Program-made: the position numbers and the translations under genes | Notes under the pieces: model-generated | What the model saw: only the letters and a program-made list of their open reading frames with translations | What the model was told of the DNA's origin: nothing | The model's database searches: none | Shown here: positions 12,880 through 49,477 of the stretch, piece after piece | Layout: every line of letters begins with the position of its first letter | Position numbering within the stretch: the first letter of the stretch is position 1 | DNA from: a virus | Taxonomy: Duplodnaviria > Heunggongvirae > Uroviricota > Caudoviricetes | Virus record (IMG/VR): IMGVR_UViG_2541047944_000004 | Coordinates: 1 to 49,477 of that record | DNA length: 49,477 nt | Reading direction: 5' to 3' (one strand)

Positions 12880-13341
12880 TTATTTGTTTTGTAATGCTTT
12901 TTTTACAACCATAAGCATAGAACTAATGACTTCCAGTGTAATATTTAATGACAATGCAATGGATAATATTTCAAATGTGGTAAATAATCGCGCTCTTGAC
13001 ATAAAAAACTCCCATTTTGGATATTCTAGCAAAGGTATATCCATCTCCCTTAAATAAGGAATAAAAACGGATGCACCAAGACAAAAAATCAGGATTTTTA
13101 AATCTAATTCCAGCTTGACAAAATAATCATCAAATACATGTTTATTATTTTGAGGGCAGATGTTGATTAGCATGCTAAAAATCACTGATATACCAGCGAT
13201 GATGCCACCTAAGGTGGCACCAATAATACCAGCTGAAGACTGTTCGATTATAGAGTAAGTGTTTTTATCCTCTGAGGAAAAAATAAAGCAAATTACACCA
13301 ATAACAATTAGTCTCACCATCAAGGTTGCTAGTTTTTGCAT
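12880..13341 (-). CDS. Four-helix inner-membrane protein (153 aa), candidate RexB-like effector
   Basis: Four hydrophobic segments; GIIGATLGGIIAGISVIF resembles the G.GATL...AG segment I recall in lambda RexB; start overlaps upstream gene stop by 13 nt; AT-rich. Confidence 0.6.
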   Translation of the reverse strand: MQKLATLMVRLIVIGVICFIFSSEDKNTYSIIEQSSAGIIGATLGGIIAGISVIFSMLINICPQNNKHVFDDYFVKLELDLKILIFCLGASVFIPYLREMDIPLLEYPKWEFFMSRARLFTTFEILSIALSLNITLEVISSMLMVVKKALQNK

Positions 13342-14267
13342 TTTTCAAACCGATAATCTTTTCTTACTAGGGAAATAATGTCCTTTACGTCATTTGCAGA
13401 ATAACCACTTAATGTGCATTCTGAAAGAGAACCATCTACAAAAATTAATTTTGCTGTAGGCTCACTATTTAAAGTAATACTTTTGGCTGTAGGACTCTTT
13501 TTCCCTTTTATCTGCCAACTTCCTCCGCCATCATTAGTCCAATCAACTAAAACATTTGCCCATGTGGAATCACGAAGATTAAGATTTCCATCTTTATTTT
13601 CAAATGTTGTGGTTAGAGCAGTAGCATTGGTATCATCTTCTATTTTGTTTAAGGCGTCTGTTAGTGCTTTTTTACTATCCCCAAAAATATTTGGCATAAC
13701 AAGAGCAAATGTCACTTGCTCAATATGCCTTAACTTGTCATATTCAACCCAAAAGTTGTCCTTCTCCAGACAAGGTTCAATAAATATGCGTAATCCTTTT
13801 TCGACGAGGTAATCATTGTTAGATAATTCCTCAAACATCATTGCCGCATTGTGAGCACTTTTAAAAACAGTGGTTTTTCGTTCAATTAAAATAACTTGTT
13901 CTTGACGATCCCATAACCATACTACAGGAGGGAAACTTGGAACATTGTATTCTTGAAAGTCCTCATTGTAACCATGCAGTTTCTTTTGTTTCGAAATCAA
14001 ACCTGCCATGACCCCATCAGTCGGGGCGACAGAAAGTTTTAATCTATACTGCCAGTTTTTATGGACAGATGGTGTTTGTGACACTCGTTTTATATTTTTT
14101 GATGCGTGAACGATCGCTTGCTCAAAGTGTTCAATACATCGCTCTTCGCCACTATGCTGAAACAAATCTGGATCTCTGGGCTTTAATAGTACGCGTAAAG
14201 CAAAAAAAAATACATTGAGAATCTCCATATAAAGTTTACCGCTATTATCACTATTCCGAGGAAACAT
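13329..14267 (-). CDS. Hypothetical soluble protein (312 aa), upstream partner of membrane protein; candidate sensor of a two-gene abortive-infection cassette
   Basis: Long ORF in markedly AT-rich DNA; no recognised catalytic motif; T9 run within codons 22-25; C10 run 5 nt upstream of ATG. Confidence 0.6.
   Translation of the reverse strand: MFPRNSDNSGKLYMEILNVFFFALRVLLKPRDPDLFQHSGEERCIEHFEQAIVHASKNIKRVSQTPSVHKNWQYRLKLSVAPTDGVMAGLISKQKKLHGYNEDFQEYNVPSFPPVVWLWDRQEQVILIERKTTVFKSAHNAAMMFEELSNNDYLVEKGLRIFIEPCLEKDNFWVEYDKLRHIEQVTFALVMPNIFGDSKKALTDALNKIEDDTNATALTTTFENKDGNLNLRDSTWANVLVDWTNDGGGSWQIKGKKSPTAKSITLNSEPTAKLIFVDGSLSECTLSGYSANDVKDIISLVRKDYRFEKCKN
14202..14210. repeat. Homopolymeric A9 (T9 on coding strand) within 5' coding region of the 312-aa gene
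   Basis: Seen directly: caaaaaaaaat on plus strand, encodes VFFFA. Confidence 0.9.
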
Positions 14268-19865: not shown

Positions 19866-20165
19866 ATGATGGAAAAAACAGAAAACAAACCGATTGTAAT
19901 TGGTGCTGATGCTGCTCCGTTTATGTTTGAGTTGTCTCAACTGGTGGAGATGCGCATCAGTGATGAATGGGGTGAGGTTAAAGCCCGCGCGCAGTATGCG
20001 GATGGCGAAAACCAGTACTTGATCCACTACAAAGCAACTGATGGTCGCGCCACGACGGAGTGGTTTGGTGAGTCAATGCTGGAAGCAACAGAAGATGATC
20101 GTCATCCTGGTTGTCCGGTATTTGCTGGTATGGAATTACCGGAAGGTGCGGTAGTTACTGAGTAA
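19866..20165 (+). CDS. Hypothetical protein (100 aa)
   Basis: AGGAG RBS 4 nt before ATG. Confidence 0.55.
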   Translation: MMEKTENKPIVIGADAAPFMFELSQLVEMRISDEWGEVKARAQYADGENQYLIHYKATDGRATTEWFGESMLEATEDDRHPGCPVFAGMELPEGAVVTE

Positions 20166-20288
20166 CAGGCATTACAGCAGCCCTTCAGTGTGAGGGGCTG
20201 CGATAATGTCAAAGCTCGTTATCAGCACCCGCCGCGCACCCAGCGCACTGGCCGATAGCGGGCTTTTTTATTCATAAAGCGAGGCTGT

Positions 20289-21077
20289 ATGAGCGAGAAA
20301 TTGAAGATCGTCTATCGCCCGTTACAAGAACTATCTCCGTATGCACACAATGCCAGGACACACAGCCCTGAGCAGGTGGCACAACTGATAGAAAGCATTA
20401 AGCAATTCGGCTGGACTAACCCAGTGCTGATTGATGAAAAGGGCGAAATTATTGCGGGTCATGGTCGTGTTATGGCGGCTGAAGTGCTCAAAATGGATTC
20501 GGTTCCGGTCATTGTTCTGTCTGGTCTGACGGATGACCAAAAAAAGGCGTACCGCCTGGCAGATAATCGCCTGCCGATGAATGCTGGCTGGGATGAAGAT
20601 CTGTTACGGATGGAGCTGTCGGACCTAATCAATGCTGATTTTGATGTCTCCCTGACAGGATTCAGCCCAACAGAAATTGATGAATTGTTGACGGATGTTT
20701 TGCCAGGTACAGGAATTGAGGAGGAGCCGTACACGACGAAAATTGATACGCCTGTTTATGAGCCGTCGGGCGATAAACCAGATATAAGTGAACTGTACGA
20801 CGATACGAAAACTCAGGAGTTGATCAGCCGGATAAGTTCGGCGTCCCTTGATCCTGATATTGAGAAATTCCTCCTGTGTGCGGCAGAACGTCATACGGTG
20901 TTTAATTTTAGCAGAATTGCGGACTATTACGCTCACGCCCCCGCTGAAATTCAGTGCTTTTTCGAGGAATCGGCGCTGGTGATCATTGATTATCAGCAGG
21001 CTATTGAAAATGGATTTGTCCGGATGACGCAGCGTATGGTGGAGATCATGCATGGCGGGGAGGAGGAATATGCGTGA
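20289..21077 (+). CDS. ParB-like nuclease domain protein
   Basis: N-terminal ParB/sulfiredoxin-like motif (NPVLIDEKGEIIAGHGRVMAAEVL); 262 aa. Confidence 0.7.
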   Translation: MSEKLKIVYRPLQELSPYAHNARTHSPEQVAQLIESIKQFGWTNPVLIDEKGEIIAGHGRVMAAEVLKMDSVPVIVLSGLTDDQKKAYRLADNRLPMNAGWDEDLLRMELSDLINADFDVSLTGFSPTEIDELLTDVLPGTGIEEEPYTTKIDTPVYEPSGDKPDISELYDDTKTQELISRISSASLDPDIEKFLLCAAERHTVFNFSRIADYYAHAPAEIQCFFEESALVIIDYQQAIENGFVRMTQRMVEIMHGGEEEYA

Positions 21078-22002
21078 TGATTTTTGCGCCTTTATTCTGA
21101 CTCACGGGCGACCGGACAAAGTTCTGACTTACCAGACGTTGCGACGTGCTGGCTATACCGGGAAAATTTTTATCGTTGTTGATGATGAAGATAATACACG
21201 GCATCAGTACATAGCTGAATTTAGTGAACAGGTGCTGGTGTTTTCCAAAGCCGAAATCGCCAGTCGTTTTGACGAAGCCGATAATTTCGGTGACCGCCGA
21301 TCAATTTTTTACGCCCGTAATGCCTGTTTCGACCTGGCAAAACTGGTCGGGTGTAAATACTTCATTCAGCTCGATGATGATTATCACGAGTTCCAGTTTC
21401 GGGTGGATCGTAACTATGATCAGGCCTATTTCCCGATAAGAAAACTGGATGCGATCCTTTCTGAAATGCTGGCGTACTACGAATCAATACCTGCGCTTTC
21501 CATCGCTATGTCGCAGGGCGGGGATTTTCTTGGTGACAATGGCGGCCATGCTTCGTGGGTGAAACGCAAGGCAATGAACAGCTTTATCTGTTCGGTTGAT
21601 CGACCGTTCTCATTCATGGGGCGCATTAACGAGGATGTGAATACGTACACGAATCTCGGTCGCTGTGGTGAATTGTTTATGACGATCGGTGCTGTCCAGT
21701 TAGGGCAGAAACAGACGCAGAAAAACAGCGGCGGAATGACCGAGCTGTATCTGGATTCCGGAACCTACGTTAAAAGTTTTTACTCCGTCATGTATGCGCC
21801 GTCGTGCGTAAAAATCTCACTGATGGGTGCCAGCCATAAACGCATTCACCATCAGGTCACCTGGAACAACGCTGCAGTAAAAATCCTTCACGAAAAATAC
21901 AGGAAGAAGACACCCTGCATATCAATGGGGGTGACAAATGATTCCGTATTCGAAAGTCGAGTCTCTGGCAGCGTGCCGGATGACTGCACAACAAATAGCT
22001 GA
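21070..22002 (+). CDS. Hypothetical protein with glycosyltransferase-like (GT-A, DxD) features
   Basis: IFIVVDDEDN and QLDDDYHEF acidic motifs resembling GT-A DxD; start overlaps ParB-like stop (ATGCGTGA). Confidence 0.5.
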   Translation: MRDDFCAFILTHGRPDKVLTYQTLRRAGYTGKIFIVVDDEDNTRHQYIAEFSEQVLVFSKAEIASRFDEADNFGDRRSIFYARNACFDLAKLVGCKYFIQLDDDYHEFQFRVDRNYDQAYFPIRKLDAILSEMLAYYESIPALSIAMSQGGDFLGDNGGHASWVKRKAMNSFICSVDRPFSFMGRINEDVNTYTNLGRCGELFMTIGAVQLGQKQTQKNSGGMTELYLDSGTYVKSFYSVMYAPSCVKISLMGASHKRIHHQVTWNNAAVKILHEKYRKKTPCISMGVTNDSVFESRVSGSVPDDCTTNS

Positions 22003-22189
22003 CGTTCTGGATGTTGATCTGAACCGACTGAAAGAAAATCGGGAAGCAATGACAAATTTTTATGCGTCCATCCGTAAGGGCAGAGCGAAAGGTGAAGCCG
22101 AGCTACGGGCGGCATTGTTTAAGCTTGCCAGAAAAGGGGATGCCTTTGCCCTGCGCGAACTACTCAGGGTGGATAAAAATCAGGACTAA
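21938..22189 (+). CDS. Small HTH-like protein (83 aa) upstream of terminase
   Basis: Predicted helix-turn-helix (MTAQQIADVLDVDLNRL); overlaps 3' end of upstream gene. Confidence 0.45.
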   Translation: MIPYSKVESLAACRMTAQQIADVLDVDLNRLKENREAMTNFYASIRKGRAKGEAELRAALFKLARKGDAFALRELLRVDKNQD

Positions 22190-22192
22190 CTG

Positions 22193-23284
22193 ATGAGCAG
22201 ACCGGACTGGGGGGCGTTGCAGCAGGAATATATTGCTGAATACACCCGCTCCGGTGTATCTCCGGTGGCATGGTGTGAAGCAAGGGGACTGAATTACGCA
22301 ACAGCCCGTCGTTACATCAAAAAACCTCCGAAAAATGCGCAGACAGAAATGCGCAAAACTGCGCAAAAAAGTGCGCAGAAAAAATCTGCGCAGACTGCGC
22401 AAAAGCGGAACGGAAAATCTCAGATAAAAAAGTCAGTATCCGATGCGCGCCTGAATGAGGGCGACGCAGAGGAAATTTCATTCTGTCCCGATGAATTCGG
22501 CATTTCTGACCAGCAGGCTAAGTTTGCGATGCTGGTTGCTCAGGGGAAAAAGCCGACAGAGGCATACCGACTGGCTGGTTATGAGGGGCAAGGTGCGACA
22601 GCTAACAGCAACGCCAGCCGTATGCTTAGAAATGCCAGGGTTTATCGTGCCATTAGCTACTTCCGCAATCAGTACCAGAAACGCTATACCGCAGACCTGG
22701 ATTTACTGGTGAGCCAGTTGATGGCTATTGTCCAGGCCGACCCCAATCAGTTGGCACAATTTCGCCGTGTTAACTGCCGTTATTGCTGGGGCGAGAATCA
22801 TCTCTACCAGTGGCGTGATATTGCAGAATTCGATAAGGCAGCGGCACAGGCCTCCAGAGATGGCAAACCCGAACCGGAATATGGAGGCCTCGGCTTTGTT
22901 GATAACGCCATACCTAATCCGGATTGTCCGAAGTGCTGCGGTGAGGGAACGGGACAGCTTTATATGGCTGATACCACTCTGCTTGATGGGGATGCGCGAC
23001 AATTATATGCAGGGGCAAAGCTCGGGAAATTTGGTGTTGAGATTCTGCTGGAGGATAAGGCTGCCGCCCGGCGCGAACTTATCAAGCTGATAACGGCGAC
23101 GAAAGGAAGTTCTGCTGGTGGTGCAACTGACAGTCGCAATGATCTGGAGCTTGAAGGACTGAGGCTTCGCAACGAAAAGCTGCGCACTGAGATTGAAAAC
23201 CTCAAAAAAGGCGTGGGTGGTGAGAATAACGAAATAATTATCCACAACTCTCTGCCGATGCCGGGAGTGGATAATGTCGATTGA
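22193..23284 (+). CDS. Terminase small subunit
   Basis: Motif PTEAYRLAGYEG...ANSNASRMLRNARV typical of TerS; Cys-rich insertion; directly upstream of TerL. Confidence 0.7.
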   Translation: MSRPDWGALQQEYIAEYTRSGVSPVAWCEARGLNYATARRYIKKPPKNAQTEMRKTAQKSAQKKSAQTAQKRNGKSQIKKSVSDARLNEGDAEEISFCPDEFGISDQQAKFAMLVAQGKKPTEAYRLAGYEGQGATANSNASRMLRNARVYRAISYFRNQYQKRYTADLDLLVSQLMAIVQADPNQLAQFRRVNCRYCWGENHLYQWRDIAEFDKAAAQASRDGKPEPEYGGLGFVDNAIPNPDCPKCCGEGTGQLYMADTTLLDGDARQLYAGAKLGKFGVEILLEDKAAARRELIKLITATKGSSAGGATDSRNDLELEGLRLRNEKLRTEIENLKKGVGGENNEIIIHNSLPMPGVDNVD

Positions 23285-24602
23285 AATCTACCTCCCAAAA
23301 CCTCATGAGGGGCAAATAGCTGCATGGACGGCGGCAATAGAGGAACGCTTCCACGCGGTATGCTGTGGTCGTCGCTGGGGTAAAACGGTGATGCTGGTAA
23401 ACATCGCTACCAGTTTCGCTACGCGGAAATTTGCCGTTCCTACCACCGGGCAACTTATCGCGGGTAGGGTGGGGATTTTTACCGCGCAATACCGCCAGTA
23501 CCAGGAAATCTGGGATGAAATTAGCGCCGTTCTGCAACCGCTGATCCTCAGTCAGTCAAAAAATGAAAAGCGCATCATTCTCCGTAATGGGGGGCGCATC
23601 GACTTTTGGGTAACGGACAATAACAAACTGGCCGGGCGTGGGCGTAAATATCACGCTGTGCTGATTGATGAGGCCGCATTCACTAAATCGCCGGAAATGC
23701 TCGAGGAAATCTGGCCCCGAGCGATACGCCCGACGCTTGTTGATTACCGCGGCTGTGCGTGGGTATTTTCCACACCAAACGGTATCGACGAGAGCAATTT
23801 TTTCTACGCGATATGCCACGATGAATCCCTGGGATTTGTTATGCACCATGCGCCAACTTCATCGAATCCGTATATTCCGAAAGAAGAACTGGAGGAAACG
23901 GAGAAAAAATCCGATCCGCGCGTCTGGCAGCAGGAATATCTTGCAGAGTTCGTAGACTGGTCCAAAGACGCGTTACTCGATGTCGATAAGCTGCTGGTGG
24001 ACGGTCAACCAATTGAGATGCCGCCGTACTGCGACATGATTTTCGCAGTGATGGATACGGCGCTGAAAGGCGGGACCGAAAATGATGGTACTGGCGTGGT
24101 GTATTTCTCTTATGAGTCAACGTATTCGGACGAGCCAAAACTGACGATTATTGACTGGGATGTGACGCAAATTAAAGCGTCATTGCTTCCTGAATATATT
24201 CCCGGCGTTTATGACAACCTCGAGCGCCTCGCGAAATTATGCCGTCCGCGTCTGGGCAGCCAGGGAATTTTTATGGAAGACGCCGCGATGGGGGCAATCC
24301 TCAACCAGAAGGCGGAAACCGAAGGCTGGGATATGACGCCGATTAAATCGGCACTAACCAGCAAGGGCAAAGACGAACGGGCGGTGATGGCATCCAGCTA
24401 CCACTATCAGGGGATGTGCAAAATCGTCCGGGAGGCTTACGACAAGACCGTTTCATTCAAACGCACCACCGCAAACCACCTCATAAAACAAATCGCCGGG
24501 TTCCACCTGGCAGACAAAGACGCGCATAAACGTGCTGATGACCTTTTCGATTGTTATACCTATGGATTGATCATCGCGCACGGTAATTACGCGGCGTTGT
24601 AA
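23274..24602 (+). CDS. Terminase large subunit
   Basis: Walker A GRRWGKT, Walker B-like VLIDEAAF, 442 aa. Confidence 0.9.
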   Translation: MSIEIYLPKPHEGQIAAWTAAIEERFHAVCCGRRWGKTVMLVNIATSFATRKFAVPTTGQLIAGRVGIFTAQYRQYQEIWDEISAVLQPLILSQSKNEKRIILRNGGRIDFWVTDNNKLAGRGRKYHAVLIDEAAFTKSPEMLEEIWPRAIRPTLVDYRGCAWVFSTPNGIDESNFFYAICHDESLGFVMHHAPTSSNPYIPKEELEETEKKSDPRVWQQEYLAEFVDWSKDALLDVDKLLVDGQPIEMPPYCDMIFAVMDTALKGGTENDGTGVVYFSYESTYSDEPKLTIIDWDVTQIKASLLPEYIPGVYDNLERLAKLCRPRLGSQGIFMEDAAMGAILNQKAETEGWDMTPIKSALTSKGKDERAVMASSYHYQGMCKIVREAYDKTVSFKRTTANHLIKQIAGFHLADKDAHKRADDLFDCYTYGLIIAHGNYAAL

Positions 24603-24620
24603 AAAATCAGGATATTTTTG

Positions 24621-39556: not shown

Positions 39557-39904
39557 ATGAGAACATGGGGCCGCGTCACCGACGCGAACGGCAACAAAAA
39601 ATGGGTTGCTGTAGAATCTGACGCCAACGGTGATTTCTCCTACGGCTGGCTGACGACGCTCATTCAGACGTTAAAGCTGGGGTTGGGGGAGTCGCCGTTT
39701 TACGCGAATTACGGTATTCCAGCGCAGCAGTGCATCGTGCAGCAAATTTACCCGGACTACTATGTGAACATGGTTCAGCAACAGTTTGCCGGGTATTTTG
39801 CATCGCTGGCAATTTCAAAGGTAGATGGGGCAGAGAACCCCACCTATAACATCGATGTTGTGTTTTTTAACGGAACCAGTTACCGGACGCAGGTTCCGGT
39901 TTGA
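39557..39904 (+). CDS. Baseplate protein (115 aa)
   Basis: ORF in baseplate cluster. Confidence 0.5.
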   Translation: MRTWGRVTDANGNKKWVAVESDANGDFSYGWLTTLIQTLKLGLGESPFYANYGIPAQQCIVQQIYPDYYVNMVQQQFAGYFASLAISKVDGAENPTYNIDVVFFNGTSYRTQVPV

Positions 39905-40377
39905 GGCAAGTTTTCGGGCATCAGTTGGGCCAGTGGCGTGTTAAGAAGTTCATCGCGTGGCATGACAATCCATCCACTTTTGCGTAGTAAGTGAATTGCC
40001 CATTCTGTGGTTATAACTGAGCCTGATTTATGGTGCTCAATGTGGGTAACCGAGCCGTTTCTGACGCGCATGATGATGTCAACATTCAGAGGGGATTGTG
40101 TGCTGGTGGTATCCTCGCGCAGCTTTTTCTCGCACTCGATGAAGTATCGGCGGATCTGGTGGCCTTTTTCGTTGCGCTCAACCATCGCCAGCTCTTTGGC
40201 GGTGTCCAGGGTTAGGTGGTAGTCTTTAGCTGGTCTGCCTCTACCGATTTTTTCCCGATTTTGGGAAATAATCAAAAAGTCCTGATTTTCTACGAATTCA
40301 TACTCGCTGATTCGCTCGGTGATCCATGTAGCAAAGCGTTTACCTACTTCGAGAAAGGCGTGCATCATAAATATCAC
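39880..40377 (-). CDS. Antirepressor, AntA/AntB-like
   Basis: N-terminal region (ISEYEFVENQDFLIIS...DYHLTLDTAKELAMVERNEKGHQIRRYFIECEKKL) matches recollected AntA antirepressor domain; opposite strand inside tail module. Confidence 0.65.
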   Translation of the reverse strand: MIFMMHAFLEVGKRFATWITERISEYEFVENQDFLIISQNREKIGRGRPAKDYHLTLDTAKELAMVERNEKGHQIRRYFIECEKKLREDTTSTQSPLNVDIIMRVRNGSVTHIEHHKSGSVITTEWAIHLLRKSGWIVMPRDELLNTPLAQLMPENLPQTGTCVR

Positions 40378-40386
40378 TGCCTGATT

Positions 40387-40935
40387 TTACATGTTTTCTT
40401 TACAGGAATTGATTGCAGCCTTATATGCTTCCGGAAGGCCATCTAATGGGAAGAATATTTTTTGTGGTTTTTCTTTACTTTCAGTTGGCGGAGTGTACCA
40501 AAAAGAAAAACTACCTTTCCCTTTAGATTTTAACAAATCACTAATCTTTAATGAGCTAATAGGACTGAACAAGTAACCTTCATTGATAGATGGGGTTGTT
40601 ATAGAGTCCTGCTTTTGTTGTCCACTGATTTTATAGCTTACAGGAAGGAACGGTGGTAAATCCATTTGTTTATATCCAATAAAATGATTGACAGTTACAT
40701 CACCGGGCTCACATTGAGTTAACGGTGATATATCAATAAATAAAGTTGATTTATCCTGCGGCAATTTGGATTCAACACCAATACGATAAGCCATAGTGGT
40801 AGGCATGGTAAACTCAGCATAATACCATTTACCAAATTGTTGAATGTCATTCATTCTCTCTGTGGCATCAATTGCATGAGAAACACCAGAAAATAGCAGT
40901 GAGCTAATCAAAATCCCTAATGAGTTAAATTTCAT
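40387..40935 (-). CDS. Secreted protein with cleavable signal peptide (182 aa), unknown function
   Basis: N-terminal MKFNSLGILISSLLFSGVSHA signal peptide; AT-rich; 9 nt upstream of ant gene on same strand. Confidence 0.6.
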   Translation of the reverse strand: MKFNSLGILISSLLFSGVSHAIDATERMNDIQQFGKWYYAEFTMPTTMAYRIGVESKLPQDKSTLFIDISPLTQCEPGDVTVNHFIGYKQMDLPPFLPVSYKISGQQKQDSITTPSINEGYLFSPISSLKISDLLKSKGKGSFSFWYTPPTESKEKPQKIFFPLDGLPEAYKAAINSCKENM

Positions 40936-40956
40936 AAAATCCTCTTGAGATTAATT

Positions 40957-42183
40957 ATGTCAGAAATACCAATTACTATGACCAGTGCGGGTGCGCAGCC
41001 TACGCCACCCAATGACTTGCTCGCGAATCTTATCACCAGAGTTGCTGAAAAAGTACCTGGATATACAGCCAACCTTCCGGCGGGACTTATTACAGACCTT
41101 GCCAGCACGGCTGTCGGGGCGCTGGCATTAATAGACCAGGCGCGGGTGGATCTTATTAACTCCGTAAGCCCATACGGCGCGAATATTCCGTTACTGATGC
41201 AACTCGGAAACATTTATGGAGCACAGAAGGGATTAAGTACAAATACGGCGGTATACGTGGTGTTTGAGGCGTTGCCGGGGTTTGGTATCCCTAAAGGATT
41301 TGTTGTCGGTGACGGCAACTACCAGTATGCAGTTTCCCGCGATACGGTGGTGCCGGAAAGCGGGCAGACTGAGCCAGTCTACTGTGTGGCCATAACGTCA
41401 GGCTCATGGGCTGTACCGGAAGGAACCGTAACTCAGGTCATTACATCGGTACCCAAAGATCAGCCTGTAAAATGCACGAACCTTACCGCAGGAATGCCAG
41501 GTCAGGAGGCGCAAACGTGGGCATCTTACCGCGCCGAAGTCATGGAGTCTGGCATGTTTGGTGTGCAGGGAACACCGGATTGCTTTAAAGCGATGCTCAA
41601 ATCAGTAAGCGGTGTGCGCGAAAACCTGATTTCTTTCCGGCAGTCGTCGCTGGGGAAATGGGTTGCGGTTGTTGGTGGCGGTGATCCGTATGACGTGGCT
41701 TATGCGATTTACAAATCTGTACCGGATATTTCGAAACTGACCAACGATGTAAGCAATCCATCCGGTGCGGCAGTGGAAAAACGCACGGTTTCAATAACCG
41801 TTTCGCCGGACGTTTATCAGGTGCCGTTCGTTATCCCGTCATCACAAAACGTCATGGTGCTAATCACCTGGAACACGGTGTCTGATGATTATGTTGACCC
41901 GGCGGGTATTGCTATGGCTGTGCAGAAAAACGTTGCTGATTACATCAATTCTATTGAAGTCGGTCACCCGATAAATCTGCTGCGAATCCAGGATATTTTT
42001 ACCAGCTCCGTAAAATTGCTGGTTGATGCGACGTTGATCTCAACAATCAGTGTGAGCATTGGTATTAACGGTCATATTGTTCTTCCGGCAAAAGACACAA
42101 GCCTGGTTTATGGCGATACCTATTCCTATTTTTCGACGGTGGCATCACAGGTTCAGGTCAATAAGTATGCAATATCTGACTGA
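40957..42183 (+). CDS. Baseplate J-like protein
   Basis: About 400-aa protein followed by overlapping I-like gene and tail fiber. Confidence 0.65.
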   Translation: MSEIPITMTSAGAQPTPPNDLLANLITRVAEKVPGYTANLPAGLITDLASTAVGALALIDQARVDLINSVSPYGANIPLLMQLGNIYGAQKGLSTNTAVYVVFEALPGFGIPKGFVVGDGNYQYAVSRDTVVPESGQTEPVYCVAITSGSWAVPEGTVTQVITSVPKDQPVKCTNLTAGMPGQEAQTWASYRAEVMESGMFGVQGTPDCFKAMLKSVSGVRENLISFRQSSLGKWVAVVGGGDPYDVAYAIYKSVPDISKLTNDVSNPSGAAVEKRTVSITVSPDVYQVPFVIPSSQNVMVLITWNTVSDDYVDPAGIAMAVQKNVADYINSIEVGHPINLLRIQDIFTSSVKLLVDATLISTISVSIGINGHIVLPAKDTSLVYGDTYSYFSTVASQVQVNKYAISD

Positions 42184-47672: not shown

Positions 47673-47702
47673 CATGAAGTAAAAGTGATGGGAGAAACTT
47701 TC

Positions 47703-48374
47703 ATGAATATGCCTCATTGTGTTCTGCATACAGGAATTGATTCGGATTTTGTACTTAGTAAACTGGGCTTTACAGAAAATGATATTCGCGATGCGTTAAT
47801 GTCTGCTTTATACGAGCGACGCAAATCCAGTAAGCTCCACCCTAAAGTGGATGCTGGATTCCGCTTTTGGAGTGAGATGGTTGCCGCGCTTCGCCGTATT
47901 CTGATTGGTAAGGGTAACGGCTGGTCTTCTGAAGTAGTCAATCGCATGGAAATGGTCGTTAATTCAAGCAAAGGGGTTAATCTGATTATTACCTCAGGTG
48001 ACGGACATACCGGGCGTCCTGATGGATTGCCTAAAACCAAAAATGCAAAGGGAGAGGCAACTCGCTCGATTGTTCACAACAATCCGGGTACATTCGATAT
48101 GTTCCAAGCAGATACCTTACATTCAGGCAAAGCTGAGATCACGCCGATAGATAGCACCCGAACTTATATCGTTCTGTATTATTATGATGCGGCAAATAAA
48201 GAAATTCGCTGTGAGGTGTCGTATCCGGTAGGGATGGTGAATCAGGACGGATTTGCCAGAGTAAGCGCGTGGAGTGAGCGAATTATTTTAGCTCCTCTGC
48301 AATTTGAAGGTGCGGATATTTTCCCTGAACAGGATTTTGATGATGACATATCAATTTCAGTTGAAAGCAAATGA
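47703..48374 (+). CDS. Hypothetical protein (223 aa), partner of HTH-ImmA/IrrE gene (candidate toxin/effector)
   Basis: GGGAGA RBS; no recognised motif; stop overlaps downstream start (ATGA). Confidence 0.6.
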   Translation: MNMPHCVLHTGIDSDFVLSKLGFTENDIRDALMSALYERRKSSKLHPKVDAGFRFWSEMVAALRRILIGKGNGWSSEVVNRMEMVVNSSKGVNLIITSGDGHTGRPDGLPKTKNAKGEATRSIVHNNPGTFDMFQADTLHSGKAEITPIDSTRTYIVLYYYDAANKEIRCEVSYPVGMVNQDGFARVSAWSERIILAPLQFEGADIFPEQDFDDDISISVESK

Positions 48375-49477
48375 GTAACACTGTTGATGATGTCAAACGT
48401 CTTTTTAATCCGTCTCGACTAAAGCTAGCGCGGATCAGACGCAAACTGACCTTGGCAGAACTGGCGAGGCGAACCGGGTTATCTAGTCGTATCGTAATTG
48501 AATACGAAAAAGATTATTGTCTTTATGCACCCACGGCAGAGACGGTACGCGCATACGCTAGTGCTTTAAATTATCCAGAGGCTTTTTTCTTTGGCGATGA
48601 TGTTGAAACAATTGATCCATTGACTGTTTCATTTCGTTCATTACGCACAACAAAAGCTGCTGACCAGCATGCGGCAATTGGTGCAGGTGCTTTAGGGGTT
48701 ATGCTTAGCGATTATTTTAATGCTCGCTTTACTCTTCCTTCGCCTCAATTGCCGAATCTCCGTGGAAGTGAGCCTGAGGTCGCTGCCCAAGCGATACGCG
48801 AGGCTTGGGGGATTGGTAAGAAGAGTATCACCAATGTTGTTCATCTACTTGAGAAATTTGGAGTTAAGGTGTTCTGGCTTTCAGAGGAAACAGCGAGTAT
48901 TGATGCTTTTTCGTTCTGGAAAGATGATGTCCCTTATATCTTTCTTAACACACGCAAGTCAGGTGAACGCAGCCGTTTTGATGCCGCACATGAATTGGCT
49001 CACCTAGTACTTCATCGTCAAGGGGAAGTCAAAGGGCAGGATGCTGAGCGTGAAGCGGATGCTTTTGCTTCTGCATTTCTAATGCCTCAGGAAAACGTGA
49101 TGGCCGTTAAGATGGTGGTCCCGACGTTTGATAAAATTGTGCAATTGAAATCACTCTGGAAAGTTTCGGCTATGGCCCTGATTGTCAGAATGCGCAATCT
49201 AAATATGCTGACGGAATGGCAGTATAATAGTTTGATGCGTGATGCGACGGCAAAGGGGTATCGAACCGGCGAGCCGGGGGGAATTGAGCGCGAAAGATCA
49301 CTCGTTATAGAAAAAATGATGACTGCTCTGGCTGGAGACGGCATTTATCTGGCTCAGTTGAGTGATGAGCTTAACGTACCTCTCGATGAATTGAGTAGTT
49401 TGCTTTATGGAGTTGCGGCAATTAGTGGCGGAAATAGCAAAAGAACACTATCAAGGGCTTCGCTCCGACTAGTATGA
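48371..49477 (+). CDS. HTH (XRE) - ImmA/IrrE family zinc metallopeptidase fusion protein
   Basis: N-terminal HTH (LTLAELARRTGLSSRIVIEYE) and HEXXH motif HELAHLVLH with downstream E (EREADAFASAFLMP); ends exactly at window end with TGA. Confidence 0.8.
   Translation: MSNTVDDVKRLFNPSRLKLARIRRKLTLAELARRTGLSSRIVIEYEKDYCLYAPTAETVRAYASALNYPEAFFFGDDVETIDPLTVSFRSLRTTKAADQHAAIGAGALGVMLSDYFNARFTLPSPQLPNLRGSEPEVAAQAIREAWGIGKKSITNVVHLLEKFGVKVFWLSEETASIDAFSFWKDDVPYIFLNTRKSGERSRFDAAHELAHLVLHRQGEVKGQDAEREADAFASAFLMPQENVMAVKMVVPTFDKIVQLKSLWKVSAMALIVRMRNLNMLTEWQYNSLMRDATAKGYRTGEPGGIERERSLVIEKMMTALAGDGIYLAQLSDELNVPLDELSSLLYGVAAISGGNSKRTLSRASLRLV

What the first reader, a model, noticed from the sequence alone, without database searches (positions are those of the whole stretch)
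20289..22002. ParB-like nuclease domain protein coupled to a glycosyltransferase-like protein immediately upstream of the terminase genes
The two genes overlap (ATGCGTGA) and precede the small HTH protein, TerS and TerL. ParB/sulfiredoxin-like domains recur in phage DNA modification and anti-restriction loci, and the second protein has acidic IVVDDED and QLDDDY motifs reminiscent of GT-A DxD transferases. Together they could specify a DNA or protein glycosylation or other modification step linked to packaging. The function is not established.
Basis: inference. Interest (0 to 1): 0.5.

Follow-up and report, generated by a model that had tools for sequence, protein, structure and literature searches.

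The report
Phage glycosyltransferase with ParB-like partner
Just upstream of its DNA-packaging genes, this E. coli prophage carries a widespread, strongly conserved two-gene cassette: a sugar-transferring enzyme of a DNA-glycosylating family, always preceded by a partner protein that usually carries a ParB-type domain. The molecule it glycosylates is still unknown.

Summary
Genes 20289-21077 and 21070-22002 overlap by 8 nt (ATGCGTGA) and sit directly upstream of the HTH/TerS/TerL/portal genes of a lambdoid (Rac-like) prophage.

Gene 2 belongs to Pfam TAGT (TET-associated glycosyltransferase, E 7e-34). It has a predicted GT-A fold and an invariant DDD motif.

Gene 1 has two parts:
- A ParB/Srx N-terminal module, the same one that heads many phage DNA methyltransferases.
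- An acidic ~120-aa C-terminal domain with no Pfam match and no match to a solved fold.

The pairing is not chance:
- In 61 of 65 loci from many bacterial phyla, and in a haloarchaeal virus, a C-domain gene immediately precedes the TAGT gene. The other four loci could not be assessed.
- The two genes overlap in 57 of those 61 loci, mostly by 8 or 11 nt.
- Stand-alone C-domain genes also pair with TAGT, so the core unit is C-domain plus TAGT.
- Both genes are under purifying selection, and about 16% of complete E. coli genomes carry the cassette.

No enzyme that makes hydroxymethyl-pyrimidines was found in this prophage, and none is annotated in two complete phage genomes that carry the pair.

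Best reading: a late-expressed, two-subunit DNA glycosyltransferase whose partner acts as adaptor or activator, with an unknown acceptor. Protein glycosylation is the main rival.

The parts
20289..21077 (+). Partner gene (262 aa, net charge about -26). It has a ParB/Srx N-module and a novel C-terminal domain. PGAP names it 'ynaK: ParB/Srx family N-terminal domain-containing protein'.
20289..20708 (+). N-module (residues 1-140): ParB/Srx nucleotide-binding-type domain plus a short helical segment. N21, G56, R59, D92 and N93 are conserved across 52 partner proteins. The same module forms the N-terminus of many phage DNA methyltransferases.
   Evidence: Pfam ParB_N and PDB Spo0J/ParB matches. phrog_498 DNA MTase E 5e-51 and PADLOC MTase_II E 3e-38, both over residues 1-141. 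tblastn gave 500 phage records, of which more than half of the 60 sampled rows lie under annotated DNA methyltransferase genes. Conservation.
20730..20768 (+). Conserved linear motif Y-T-x-K-I-x-x-P-x-Y-E-P (residues 148-160). It is predicted disordered. Y148, P155 and Y157 are invariant. It is kept in stand-alone C-domain proteins.
20781..21008 (+). Helical core of the C-terminal domain (residues ~165-240, pLDDT >90). Invariant residues are R201, F205, A211, Y214, E226, D234 and A238; H202 and S228 are nearly invariant. It has no Pfam family and no PDB fold match. It is the obligate TAGT-linked part.
21070..21077 (+). ATGCGTGA: the TAGT start codon overlaps the partner's stop codon, implying translational coupling.
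   Evidence: The overlap is conserved in 57 of 61 loci, mostly 8 or 11 nt.
21070..22002 (+). TAGT-family GT-A glycosyltransferase (310 aa). PGAP names it 'GREB1-related protein'. The last ~22 aa are an E. coli-specific tail that overlaps the next ORF.
   Evidence: Pfam PF20691 117.9 bits (cut-off 27.5), phrog_842. AF2 pLDDT 77 with GT-A hits. Alignment.
21181..21192 (+). First acidic motif D38-D39-E40-D41 (IVVDDED), at the end of beta-strand 2, the usual nucleotide-binding position in GT-A enzymes.
   Evidence: D38 and D41 are invariant. Secondary structure.
21373..21381 (+). DxD motif D102-D103-D104 (QLDDDY), the presumed metal/NDP-sugar site.
   Evidence: Invariant in 34 homologues. Sequence.
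21938..22189 (+). Context: 83-aa HTH/TerS-like protein that overlaps the TAGT tail by 65 nt.
   Evidence: phrog_309 E 2.5e-22
22193..24602 (+). Context: terminase small subunit (22193-23284) and large subunit (23274-24602). The portal gene follows at 24618.

Best explanation
The two genes encode the two subunits of a late-expressed phage glycosyltransferase that most likely acts on DNA.

The TAGT protein is the catalytic GT-A subunit. It uses an NDP-sugar, with the DDD motif and a C-terminal HH as the likely metal site. The upstream protein is its obligate partner. Its novel acidic C-terminal domain, with the YTxKIxxPxYEP peptide, binds and activates or regulates the enzyme. Its ParB/Srx N-module does for this enzyme what it does for the many phage ParB-methyltransferase fusions and for ParB-dependent thymine dioxygenases: NTP-gated engagement or retention of the enzyme on double-stranded DNA.

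The cassette has no promoter-like site immediately upstream and is contiguous with the HTH/TerS/TerL genes downstream. It would therefore be transcribed with the late operon, silent in the lysogen, and would mark replicated phage DNA just before headful packaging. The probable benefit is protection from restriction or other nucleic-acid-targeting defences in the next host.

**Shown:** the families, the fold, the motifs, the obligate pairing, the operon position, the conservation, and the absence of a hydroxymethyl-pyrimidine pathway in this prophage.

**Inferred:** physical complex formation, DNA as the acceptor, the sugar donor, the timing, and the anti-restriction benefit.
For: - **Enzyme family.** Gene 2 is in Pfam TAGT (E 7e-34), the family of the T2/T6 beta-glucosyl-HMC-alpha-glucosyltransferase that acts on DNA (PMC13216743). 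GT-A fold and DxD motif are confirmed.
- **Obligate partner.** 61 of 65 loci across phyla have the C-domain gene directly upstream, and 57 of 61 overlap. The pair also occurs in phage c5, phi jlb1, haloarchaeal virus HHTV-2, Vibrio phage pv27 and a Porphyromonas phage with only 27% TAGT identity.
- **N-module shared with DNA methyltransferases**. NTP-pocket residues are conserved.
- **Experimental precedent.** Phage ParB-like proteins lacking a DNA-binding domain activate their cognate DNA thymine dioxygenase on dsDNA (PMC13229309).
- **Genomic setting.** The cassette sits among replication and packaging genes.
- **Charge.** The TAGT subfamily is basic (median pI 8.8).
- **Selection.** dN/dS is 0.06-0.19. 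The pair is intact in 75 of 80 IMG/VR loci and present in 863 of 5426 complete E. coli genomes.
Against: - **No known acceptor.** No TET/5mYOX, hydroxymethylase or methyltransferase Pfam domain was found in the 55 ORFs scanned, which include every ORF of 190 aa or more outside the cassette that is not largely nested inside a longer one. About a third of these, including the 312-aa ORF at 13329-14267 and several late-region ORFs, had no Pfam match at all. None is annotated in the complete genomes of c5 and phi jlb1. No known hydroxyl acceptor exists in canonical DNA.
- **Acidic partner.** The C-domain has charge about -16 and a family median pI of 4.6. It is unlikely to bind DNA itself and could be a substrate or inhibitor instead.
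- **ParB module dispensable.** Stand-alone C-domain partners exist.
- **Window enzyme is near neutral** (pI 6.7).
- **No reported modification.** No papers were searched for DNA modification in the cultured phages that carry the pair, and I recall none.
- **Incomplete census.** The Pfam scan of neighbours showed only the 25 commonest families, so rare co-occurrence with 5mYOX is not excluded.
Confidence: 0.5

Rival explanations
1. Protein glycosylation. The glycosyltransferase modifies a protein rather than DNA. The most economical candidate is its own partner, on the invariant Tyr or Thr residues of the disordered YTxKIxxPxYEP motif, as in glycogenin-type or toxin-type Tyr/Thr O-glycosylation. 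The glycosylated ParB-like protein would then act in DNA handling or against a host factor.
For: - The invariant Y148 and Y157 and the conserved T149 lie in a predicted disordered segment that is retained even in stand-alone partners.
- No DNA acceptor pathway is present.
- The partner is strongly acidic.
- A distant relative, GREB1, O-GlcNAcylates a protein (PMC7968844).
- PDB fold neighbours include protein-modifying GT-A enzymes such as GalNAc-T2, ColGalT1/LH3, glycogenin and SunS/ThuS.
Against: - The N-module is the one used by DNA methyltransferases.
- The characterised phage members of TAGT act on DNA.
- The cassette sits in DNA replication and packaging contexts.
- Conserved hydroxyl residues in a binding peptide are equally expected for a docking motif.
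Confidence: 0.2
2. Packaging accessory. The pair assists the terminase, for example in pac-site or concatemer recognition or as a nuclease or cleavage cofactor. It would fill the slot that an HNH endonuclease occupies in cos phages.
For: - The position directly upstream of HTH/TerS/TerL/portal genes recurs across phyla.
- phiP27 carries an HNH endonuclease in the same slot after the same upstream gene.
- Aravind and co-workers proposed that ParB directs modification machinery during packaging (quoted in PMC8256090).
Against: - The pair occurs with unrelated terminase families.
- Stand-alone C-domain/TAGT pairs lie in replication modules with no terminase gene among the called neighbours.
- A strictly conserved NDP-sugar transferase active site has no role in known packaging mechanisms.
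- There is no evidence of nuclease motifs.
Confidence: 0.1
3. Prophage-encoded defence or superinfection exclusion. The enzyme glycosylates hydroxymethylated DNA of invading phages (T-even-like, hmU phages), or otherwise interferes with them, rather than modifying the phage's own DNA.
For: - This explanation supplies a real acceptor (5hmC, 5hmU or glucosyl-hmC) that the prophage itself lacks.
- The idea is raised in bioRxiv 10.1101/2023.12.21.572611.
- The cassette is very common in E. coli prophages.
Against: - The cassette lies inside the late operon with no promoter-like site just upstream, and it overlaps the downstream packaging genes.
- It is also present in phages that have no annotated integrase (L. 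delbrueckii phage c5) or are large with their own replication genes (the 191-kb Vibrio phage pv27).
- It has no PADLOC defence-model hit apart from the shared MTase N-module.
Confidence: 0.07
4. Vestigial remnant of a TET/5mYOX-glycosyltransferase pathway that no longer has a substrate.
For: No precursor enzyme is present. Decayed copies exist, such as the K-12 Rac ynaK fragment and fusion or truncation products in the homologue lists.
Against: - dN/dS is 0.06-0.19.
- TAGT is 43-58% identical across phyla, with tens of invariant residues.
- The pair is intact in 75 of 80 viral loci.
Confidence: 0.03

Closest known systems
T2/T6 beta-glucosyl-HMC-alpha-glucosyltransferase (Pfam PF20691 TAGT; PHROG 842)
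   Same: Same Pfam and PHROG family. GT-A fold with a DxD motif. Phage-encoded. The characterised enzyme glycosylates DNA.
   Different: - Only distantly related. T2 and T6 were not hit by tblastn, and T4-like Aeromonas homologues are 22-26% identical.
- The T-even enzymes need alpha-glucosyl-5hmC as acceptor and have no ParB or C-domain partner.
- This prophage has no hmC pathway.
ParB-dependent phage thymine dioxygenases (5mYOX176/ParB176; PNAS 2026, PMC13229309)
   Same: A phage ParB-like protein with an N-terminal nucleotide-binding domain and a C-terminal domain but no HTH DNA-binding domain. It is encoded next to a DNA base-modifying enzyme, is specific for that enzyme, and is often near terminase genes.
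   Different: The partner enzyme here is a glycosyltransferase, not an Fe/2OG dioxygenase. No dioxygenase is present.
Phage ParB_N-DNA methyltransferase fusions (PHROG 498; PADLOC MTase_II)
   Same: The N-terminal 140 aa are homologous, at 30-55% identity over the full length. They are found in prophages, often in front of the packaging genes (PMC12704722).
   Different: The catalytic methyltransferase domain is replaced by a non-catalytic-looking adaptor domain, and the enzyme is supplied in trans by the next gene.
DpdA/DpdB 7-deazaguanine DNA modification (from my own knowledge; not checked here)
   Same: A ParB-like NTPase (DpdB) is required for a DNA base-modifying enzyme (DpdA) to act on DNA.
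   Different: Different chemistry (transglycosylation of preQ0) and a bacterial defence island rather than a phage late operon. There is no sequence link beyond the ParB fold.
Base J glucosyltransferase (JGT) and GREB1
   Same: PGAP names the E. coli protein 'GREB1-related'. Iyer et al. 2013 group these GT-A enzymes with TAGT (my recollection; the paper is not held). JGT glucosylates 5hmU in DNA.
   Different: These are eukaryotic, depend on JBP-made 5hmU (JGT) or act on a protein (GREB1), and have no C-domain partner.

Membership tests
Pfam PF20691 TAGT / GT-A glycosyltransferases | Profile score above the curated cut-off | tested here: met
   117.9 bits against a cut-off of 27.5, residues 8-222. 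phrog_842 E 6e-102.
Pfam PF20691 TAGT / GT-A glycosyltransferases | GT-A (single Rossmann-like) fold | tested here: met
   AF2 model with pLDDT 77 and pTM 0.77. All 44 PDB matches at E <= 0.001 are GT-A-type nucleotide-sugar enzymes; the top 31 are glycosyltransferases (WrtF, LH3, ColGalT1, GalNAc-T2, SpsA, GnT-I) and the rest include ADP-glucose pyrophosphorylase and a CDP-ME synthase. TM-scores are modest at 0.25-0.46.
Pfam PF20691 TAGT / GT-A glycosyltransferases | DxD metal/NDP-sugar motif | tested here: met
   D102-D103-D104 are invariant in 34 homologues, as are D38, D41, H260 and H261.
TET/5mYOX-associated or T-even DNA glycosylation pathway | A co-encoded enzyme that makes the hydroxymethyl-pyrimidine acceptor (TET/JBP 5mYOX with or without a C5-MTase, or a dCMP/dUMP hydroxymethylase) | tested here: not met
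   None was found among the 55 ORFs scanned, which include every ORF of 190 aa or more outside the cassette that is not largely nested inside a longer one; about a third of them had no Pfam match at all. None is annotated in phages c5 and phi jlb1. None is among the 25 commonest Pfam families of 150 neighbour clusters (list truncated).
TET/5mYOX-associated or T-even DNA glycosylation pathway | Sugar transfer to DNA demonstrated | not testable with these tools
   This needs nucleoside mass spectrometry or an in vitro assay.
ParB/Srx N-terminal (CTPase-fold) domain, PF02195 | Profile match and conserved NTP-pocket motifs (Box I N-x-R, Box II GxxR, Box III D/E-N) | tested here: met
   Pfam 27.3 bits against a cut-off of 26.3 (borderline). 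phrog_620 E 7e-89. PDB Spo0J/ParB N-domains E 2e-4. N21, G56, R59, D92 and N93 are at least 60-90% conserved in 52 partners. Nucleotide binding itself was not tested.
Canonical partition ParB (TIGR00180) | HTH DNA-binding domain, C-terminal dimerisation domain, ParA partner and parS | tested here: not met
   TIGR00180 scored 37.4 bits against a cut-off of 58.45, matching only residues 11-94. No HTH Pfam domain was found in the protein. No ParA-type gene appeared among the window proteins scanned. parS was not searched for.
ParB-like nuclease | Nuclease active site or activity | not tested
   The 'nuclease' label comes from legacy annotation of the domain. Nothing examined here speaks for or against nuclease activity.
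ParB-assisted DNA-modification modules (ParB-MTase fusions, ParB/5mYOX) | A ParB_N module without a DNA-binding domain, covalently or genetically coupled to a DNA-modifying enzyme and conserved as a unit | tested here: met
   The N-module is homologous to MTase N-termini. Adjacency holds in 61 of 65 loci and overlap in 57 of 61.
ParB-assisted DNA-modification modules (ParB-MTase fusions, ParB/5mYOX) | The enzyme depends on the ParB-like partner for activity on dsDNA | not testable with these tools
   This needs co-expression or reconstitution.
Known anti-phage defence systems (PADLOC) | Match to a defence-system protein model | tested here: not met
   The only hit is the shared N-module to MTase_II. 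The TAGT has no hit.

The most novel reading that the evidence does not exclude
The cassette is a self-sufficient, two-subunit enzyme that glycosylates canonical DNA, meaning DNA that has not first been hydroxymethylated. The attachment would be, for example, to an exocyclic amine or another native position. That would be a new kind of natural DNA modification, made by temperate and virulent phages of Enterobacteria, Bacteroidota, Firmicutes and haloarchaea, and latent in about one in six sequenced E. coli genomes.
Probability: 0.2. Interest if true: 0.9.

Novelty: new variant of a known kind. Interest (0 to 1): 0.55.

Why it matters
**Known and open.** Glycosylated phage DNA is so far known only on hydroxymethylated or hydroxylated pyrimidines. 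A 2026 survey noted that 288 of 753 TAGT-encoding phage genomes carry a 'solitary' TAGT whose function is undefined (PMC13216743).

**What this locus adds.** One large solitary lineage is never truly alone. It always comes with a small unannotated partner domain, usually fused to the ParB module that phages also attach to DNA methyltransferases.

**What becomes testable.** This gives a concrete two-gene unit, present in ordinary E. coli prophages and in easily grown Lactobacillus phages, with which to ask three questions:
- What do solitary TAGTs glycosylate?
- How general are ParB-fold proteins as cofactors of DNA-modifying enzymes?
- Does the product affect restriction, type IV systems such as GmrSD/BrxU, CRISPR, or sequencing and cloning of such phage DNA?

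If the acceptor is canonical DNA or the partner protein, the chemistry would be new.

Tried and rejected
- **Hidden hydroxymethyl-pyrimidine pathway.** I scanned 55 window ORFs against Pfam, PHROGs, NCBIfam or PADLOC, including every ORF of 190 aa or more outside the cassette that is not largely nested inside a longer one. None matched a TET/JBP, thymidylate-synthase-like or methyltransferase family; about a third had no Pfam match. The unannotated 312-aa minus-strand ORF has no PDB relative either.
- **Natural C-domain-TAGT fusions.** None appeared among the best 150 of 1393 representatives; the C-domain is always C-terminal. The longer E. coli 'fusion' proteins look like prophage-decay or assembly products (my inference from fusions to Lom, tail-fibre and NlpC domains).
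- **Canonical partition ParB.** Rejected.
- **Defence system.** No PADLOC support.
- **Own promoter.** The consensus scan found no promoter-like site upstream. The only plus-strand hit lies inside the TAGT gene, and the total count was no higher than in shuffled sequence.
- **Iyer et al. 2013,** which defined TAGT, is not in the library, so I know its statements only through citing papers.
- **Supplementary sequences of ParB176/5mYOX176** are not held.
- **The IMG/VR scan** returned mostly near-identical E. coli prophages, so it added counts but little diversity.
- **A complex model** of the two proteins could not be made. Both structure-prediction jobs went on the single chains.
Full report
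**1. What is in the sequence**

The window is a lambdoid, Rac-like prophage.
- Early region: integrase, YqaJ exonuclease, RecT, RecE-like exonuclease VIII, a cI-type repressor, YdaT, DnaT-like and P-like replication proteins, DUF1367, YbcO and a Q-type antiterminator.
- Lysis genes: two holins and a GH108 endolysin.
- Late region: terminase, portal, head and tail genes through baseplate and tail fibres.

The finding covers two plus-strand genes: 20289-21077 (262 aa) and 21070-22002 (310 aa). The ATG at 21070 lies inside ATGCGTGA, so the second gene's start overlaps the first gene's stop by 8 nt, exactly as reported. Homologues start at the same MRDDF, which favours 21070 over the in-frame ATG at 21052.

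The second gene overlaps by 65 nt an 83-aa HTH/TerS-like ORF. TerS, TerL and the portal gene follow. A consensus scan finds no promoter-like site just upstream. The only plus-strand site lies inside the second gene, and the total count did not exceed that in shuffled sequence. The pair therefore looks like the first genes of the packaging part of the late operon.

**2. The second gene is a GT-A glycosyltransferase of the TAGT family**

- It scores 117.9 bits (cut-off 27.5) on Pfam PF20691, 'TET-associated glycosyltransferase', and E 6e-102 on PHROG 842, 'beta-glucosyl-HMC-alpha-glucosyltransferase'.
- PGAP annotates the E. coli orthologues as 'GREB1-related protein' or hypothetical.
- An AlphaFold2 model (pLDDT 77, pTM 0.77) has the alternating beta/alpha pattern of GT-A.
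- All 44 PDB matches at E <= 0.001 are GT-A-type nucleotide-sugar enzymes. The top 31 are glycosyltransferases such as WrtF, LH3, ColGalT1, GalNAc-T2, SpsA and GnT-I, although TM-scores are only 0.25-0.46.
D38 and D41 are invariant in IVVDDED, D102-D104 in QLDDDY, and H260-H261 are also invariant among 34 homologues.
- No solved structure is related by sequence.

PF20691 contains the biochemically characterised T2/T6 enzyme that adds a second glucose to glucosyl-5hmC in DNA (PMC13216743; PMC13390438). The window protein is only a distant relative. T2 and T6 are not found by tblastn, and T4-like Aeromonas phage homologues are 22-26% identical.

**3. The first gene has two parts, and the C-terminal part is the one tied to the glycosyltransferase**

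*N-module (residues 1-140).* This is a ParB/Srx N-domain plus a short helical segment.
- It matches Pfam ParB_N (borderline, 27.3 against 26.3 bits), phrog_620 (E 7e-89) and Spo0J/ParB N-domains in the PDB.
- It is not a partition ParB. TIGR00180 scores below its cut-off and matches only residues 11-94. The protein has no HTH Pfam domain, and no ParA-type gene appeared among the window proteins scanned.
- The same 140 residues match the N-terminus of phage DNA methyltransferases: phrog_498 E 5e-51 and PADLOC MTase_II E 3e-38.
- tblastn finds 500 phage records at 30-55% identity over the full module. More than half of the 60 sampled rows lie under annotated DNA methyltransferase genes.
- Residues at the nucleotide-pocket positions (N21, G56, R59, D92, N93) are conserved across 52 partner proteins.

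*C-terminal part (residues 141-262).* This part has no significant Pfam match.
- It is very acidic, with net charge about -16.
- It begins with a conserved, predicted-disordered peptide, Y-T-x-K-I-x-x-P-x-Y-E-P.
- A confidently predicted helical bundle follows, with invariant R201, E226 and D234 and a nearly invariant H202.

**4. The pairing is conserved far beyond chance**

A pattern and tblastn scan of one genome per GTDB species returned 65 loci. They span Proteobacteria, Bacteroidota, Firmicutes, Planctomycetota, Acidobacteriota, CPR bacteria and others, with TAGT at 43-98% identity.
- In 61 loci the TAGT gene is directly preceded by a gene carrying the C-domain. The other four are cut at a contig edge or truncated.
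- In 57 of the 61 the stop and start overlap, mostly by 8 or 11 nt.
- With an HMM, nearly all complete partners also have the ParB N-module. Four have only the C-domain.

A profile search with the C-domain gave further detail.
- The best 120 hits of the word-indexed search are stand-alone proteins of about 130 aa with no Pfam domain.
- In an exhaustive library of 1.84 billion representatives it finds 1393 proteins, 838 of them at E <= 1e-30. Among the best 150 the domain is always C-terminal, either alone (130-190 aa) or behind a ParB N-module (240-310 aa).
- Two stand-alone examples sit directly upstream of a TAGT gene inside phage replication modules with SSB, helicases and DNA methyltransferases.

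The same pair occurs in cultured viruses:
- L. delbrueckii phage c5, as ORF1 and ORF2 right after cos and before the terminase
- L. gasseri phi jlb1
- Haloarcula virus HHTV-2, gp21 and gp22
- 191-kb Vibrio phage pv27, with the stand-alone form beside a helicase
- a Porphyromonas phage whose TAGT is only 27% identical

In contrast, the T4-like Aeh1 TAGT has no such partner.

Across the 65 loci the commonest downstream neighbours are an HTH/TerS-like gene, TerL and the portal gene. Upstream neighbours include SSB, VRR-NUC, PcfJ and helicases.

In E. coli the 2.2-kb cassette is present at 80% coverage or more in 863 of 5426 complete genomes. IMG/VR holds at least 593 loci, and 75 of the best 80 are intact. 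dN/dS against diverged alleles is 0.06-0.19 for both genes.

The core unit is therefore C-domain plus TAGT. The ParB N-module is a frequent add-on, and it is present here.

**5. What is missing**

Known DNA glycosyltransferases need a hydroxylated base.
- I scanned 55 ORFs of the window, including every ORF of 190 aa or more outside the cassette that is not largely nested inside a longer one. None matched a TET/JBP, thymidylate-synthase-like or methyltransferase family.
- About a third of them had no Pfam match at all. These include the 312-aa ORF at 13329-14267 and several late-region ORFs, so a very divergent enzyme is not strictly excluded.
- No such enzyme is annotated in the complete 32-kb and 38-kb genomes of c5 and phi jlb1.
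- None appears among the 25 commonest Pfam families of 150 neighbour clusters. That list was truncated, so rare co-occurrence is not excluded.

This lineage thus belongs to the 'solitary TAGT' group whose function the 2026 NAR paper calls undefined.

**6. How it most likely works**

I favour, at about 0.5, a two-subunit DNA glycosyltransferase.
- TAGT is the catalytic subunit.
- The partner's C-domain and motif bind and activate or regulate it.
- The ParB N-module does what it does for the methyltransferase fusions and for ParB-dependent phage thymine dioxygenases.

In those dioxygenase systems, a ParB-like protein lacking a DNA-binding domain is needed for its cognate enzyme to act on dsDNA. 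Models place the enzyme between the N- and C-terminal domains of ParB (PMC13229309). The idea that ParB directs modification machinery during packaging goes back to Aravind and co-workers (quoted in PMC8256090). A 2025 survey shows that phage ParB-fold fusions to methyltransferases bind NTPs (PMC12704722). Late-operon placement would restrict the activity to replicated phage DNA just before packaging.

Three things weigh against this reading: the lack of any known acceptor in canonical DNA, the acidity of the partner, and the dispensability of the ParB module.

The main rival, at about 0.2, is protein glycosylation. The partner's invariant Tyr/Thr motif is the obvious candidate acceptor. Weaker rivals are a packaging-accessory role, a defence role against hydroxymethylated phages, and a vestigial remnant. 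Each conflicts with some of the evidence above.

**7. Novelty**

The individual families are known and annotated, and the association of ParB with phage DNA-modification genes has been noted before. I did not find three things described in the papers I could read:
- the obligate, unannotated C-terminal partner domain
- its stand-alone form
- the systematic independence of this TAGT lineage from hydroxymethyl-pyrimidine pathways

I could not read Iyer et al. 2013, which may describe part of this. I therefore rate the finding as a new variant of a known kind, of moderate to good interest. The upside is larger if the acceptor turns out to be canonical DNA or the partner protein.

Noticed in passing
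window 12880-14267 (minus strand): Two overlapping minus-strand ORFs (153 aa and 312 aa) lie between the Ea22-like gene and the DUF1367/YbcO/Q genes. Neither has a Pfam, PHROG or PADLOC match, and the 312-aa ORF has no PDB sequence match. They are oriented against the surrounding early and late genes. This looks like a moron, possibly a defence or accessory cassette.
   Followed up: partly
window 47685-49477 (+): After the tail-fibre genes come a 229-aa ORF with no family match and a 368-aa HTH_3 plus Peptidase_M78 (ImmA/IrrE-like) protein. This is a regulator/protease pair at the prophage end or in the next element.
   Followed up: partly
window 39880-41213 (minus strand): Three minus-strand genes are embedded in the tail/baseplate region: an Ant-type anti-repressor (165 aa), a phrog_31333 protein (182 aa) and a 93-aa ORF.
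   Followed up: partly
window 21937-22002: The E. coli/Shigella TAGT alleles carry a ~22-aa C-terminal tail that is absent from homologues in other genera, which end near residue 288. The tail is predicted disordered (pLDDT <50) and is encoded by the stretch that overlaps the start of the next (HTH) gene.
   Followed up: partly
L029:2970-5117 and L051:2614-6161: Two loci carry a second TAGT paralogue next to the C-domain/TAGT pair. One other locus has an NAD-dependent epimerase/GDP-mannose dehydratase-type gene nearby. These hint at di-saccharide or unusual-sugar products in some relatives.
   Followed up: no
window 20289-20550 (homologue of E. coli K-12 ynaK): PGAP gives the gene symbol ynaK to this partner gene in E. 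coli genomes. From memory, the K-12 Rac ynaK is a truncated remnant of it. A 2026 screen reports that ynaK raised the MIC of six antibiotics 3- to 6-fold (PMC12924614). That effect is unexplained and possibly unrelated to the native function.
   Followed up: partly
window 20100-20269 versus phiP27 (L072:5001-5107): The upstream gene (phrog_1935) and part of the intergenic hairpin region are about 94% identical to phiP27. There the next gene is an HNH endonuclease, followed by cos and the terminase genes. The slot in front of the terminase is therefore a swap point for different DNA-handling cassettes.
   Followed up: partly
L012:6875-7447, L008:3513-4046: Some loci carry an additional, separate ParB_N-domain gene near the pair.
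   Followed up: no
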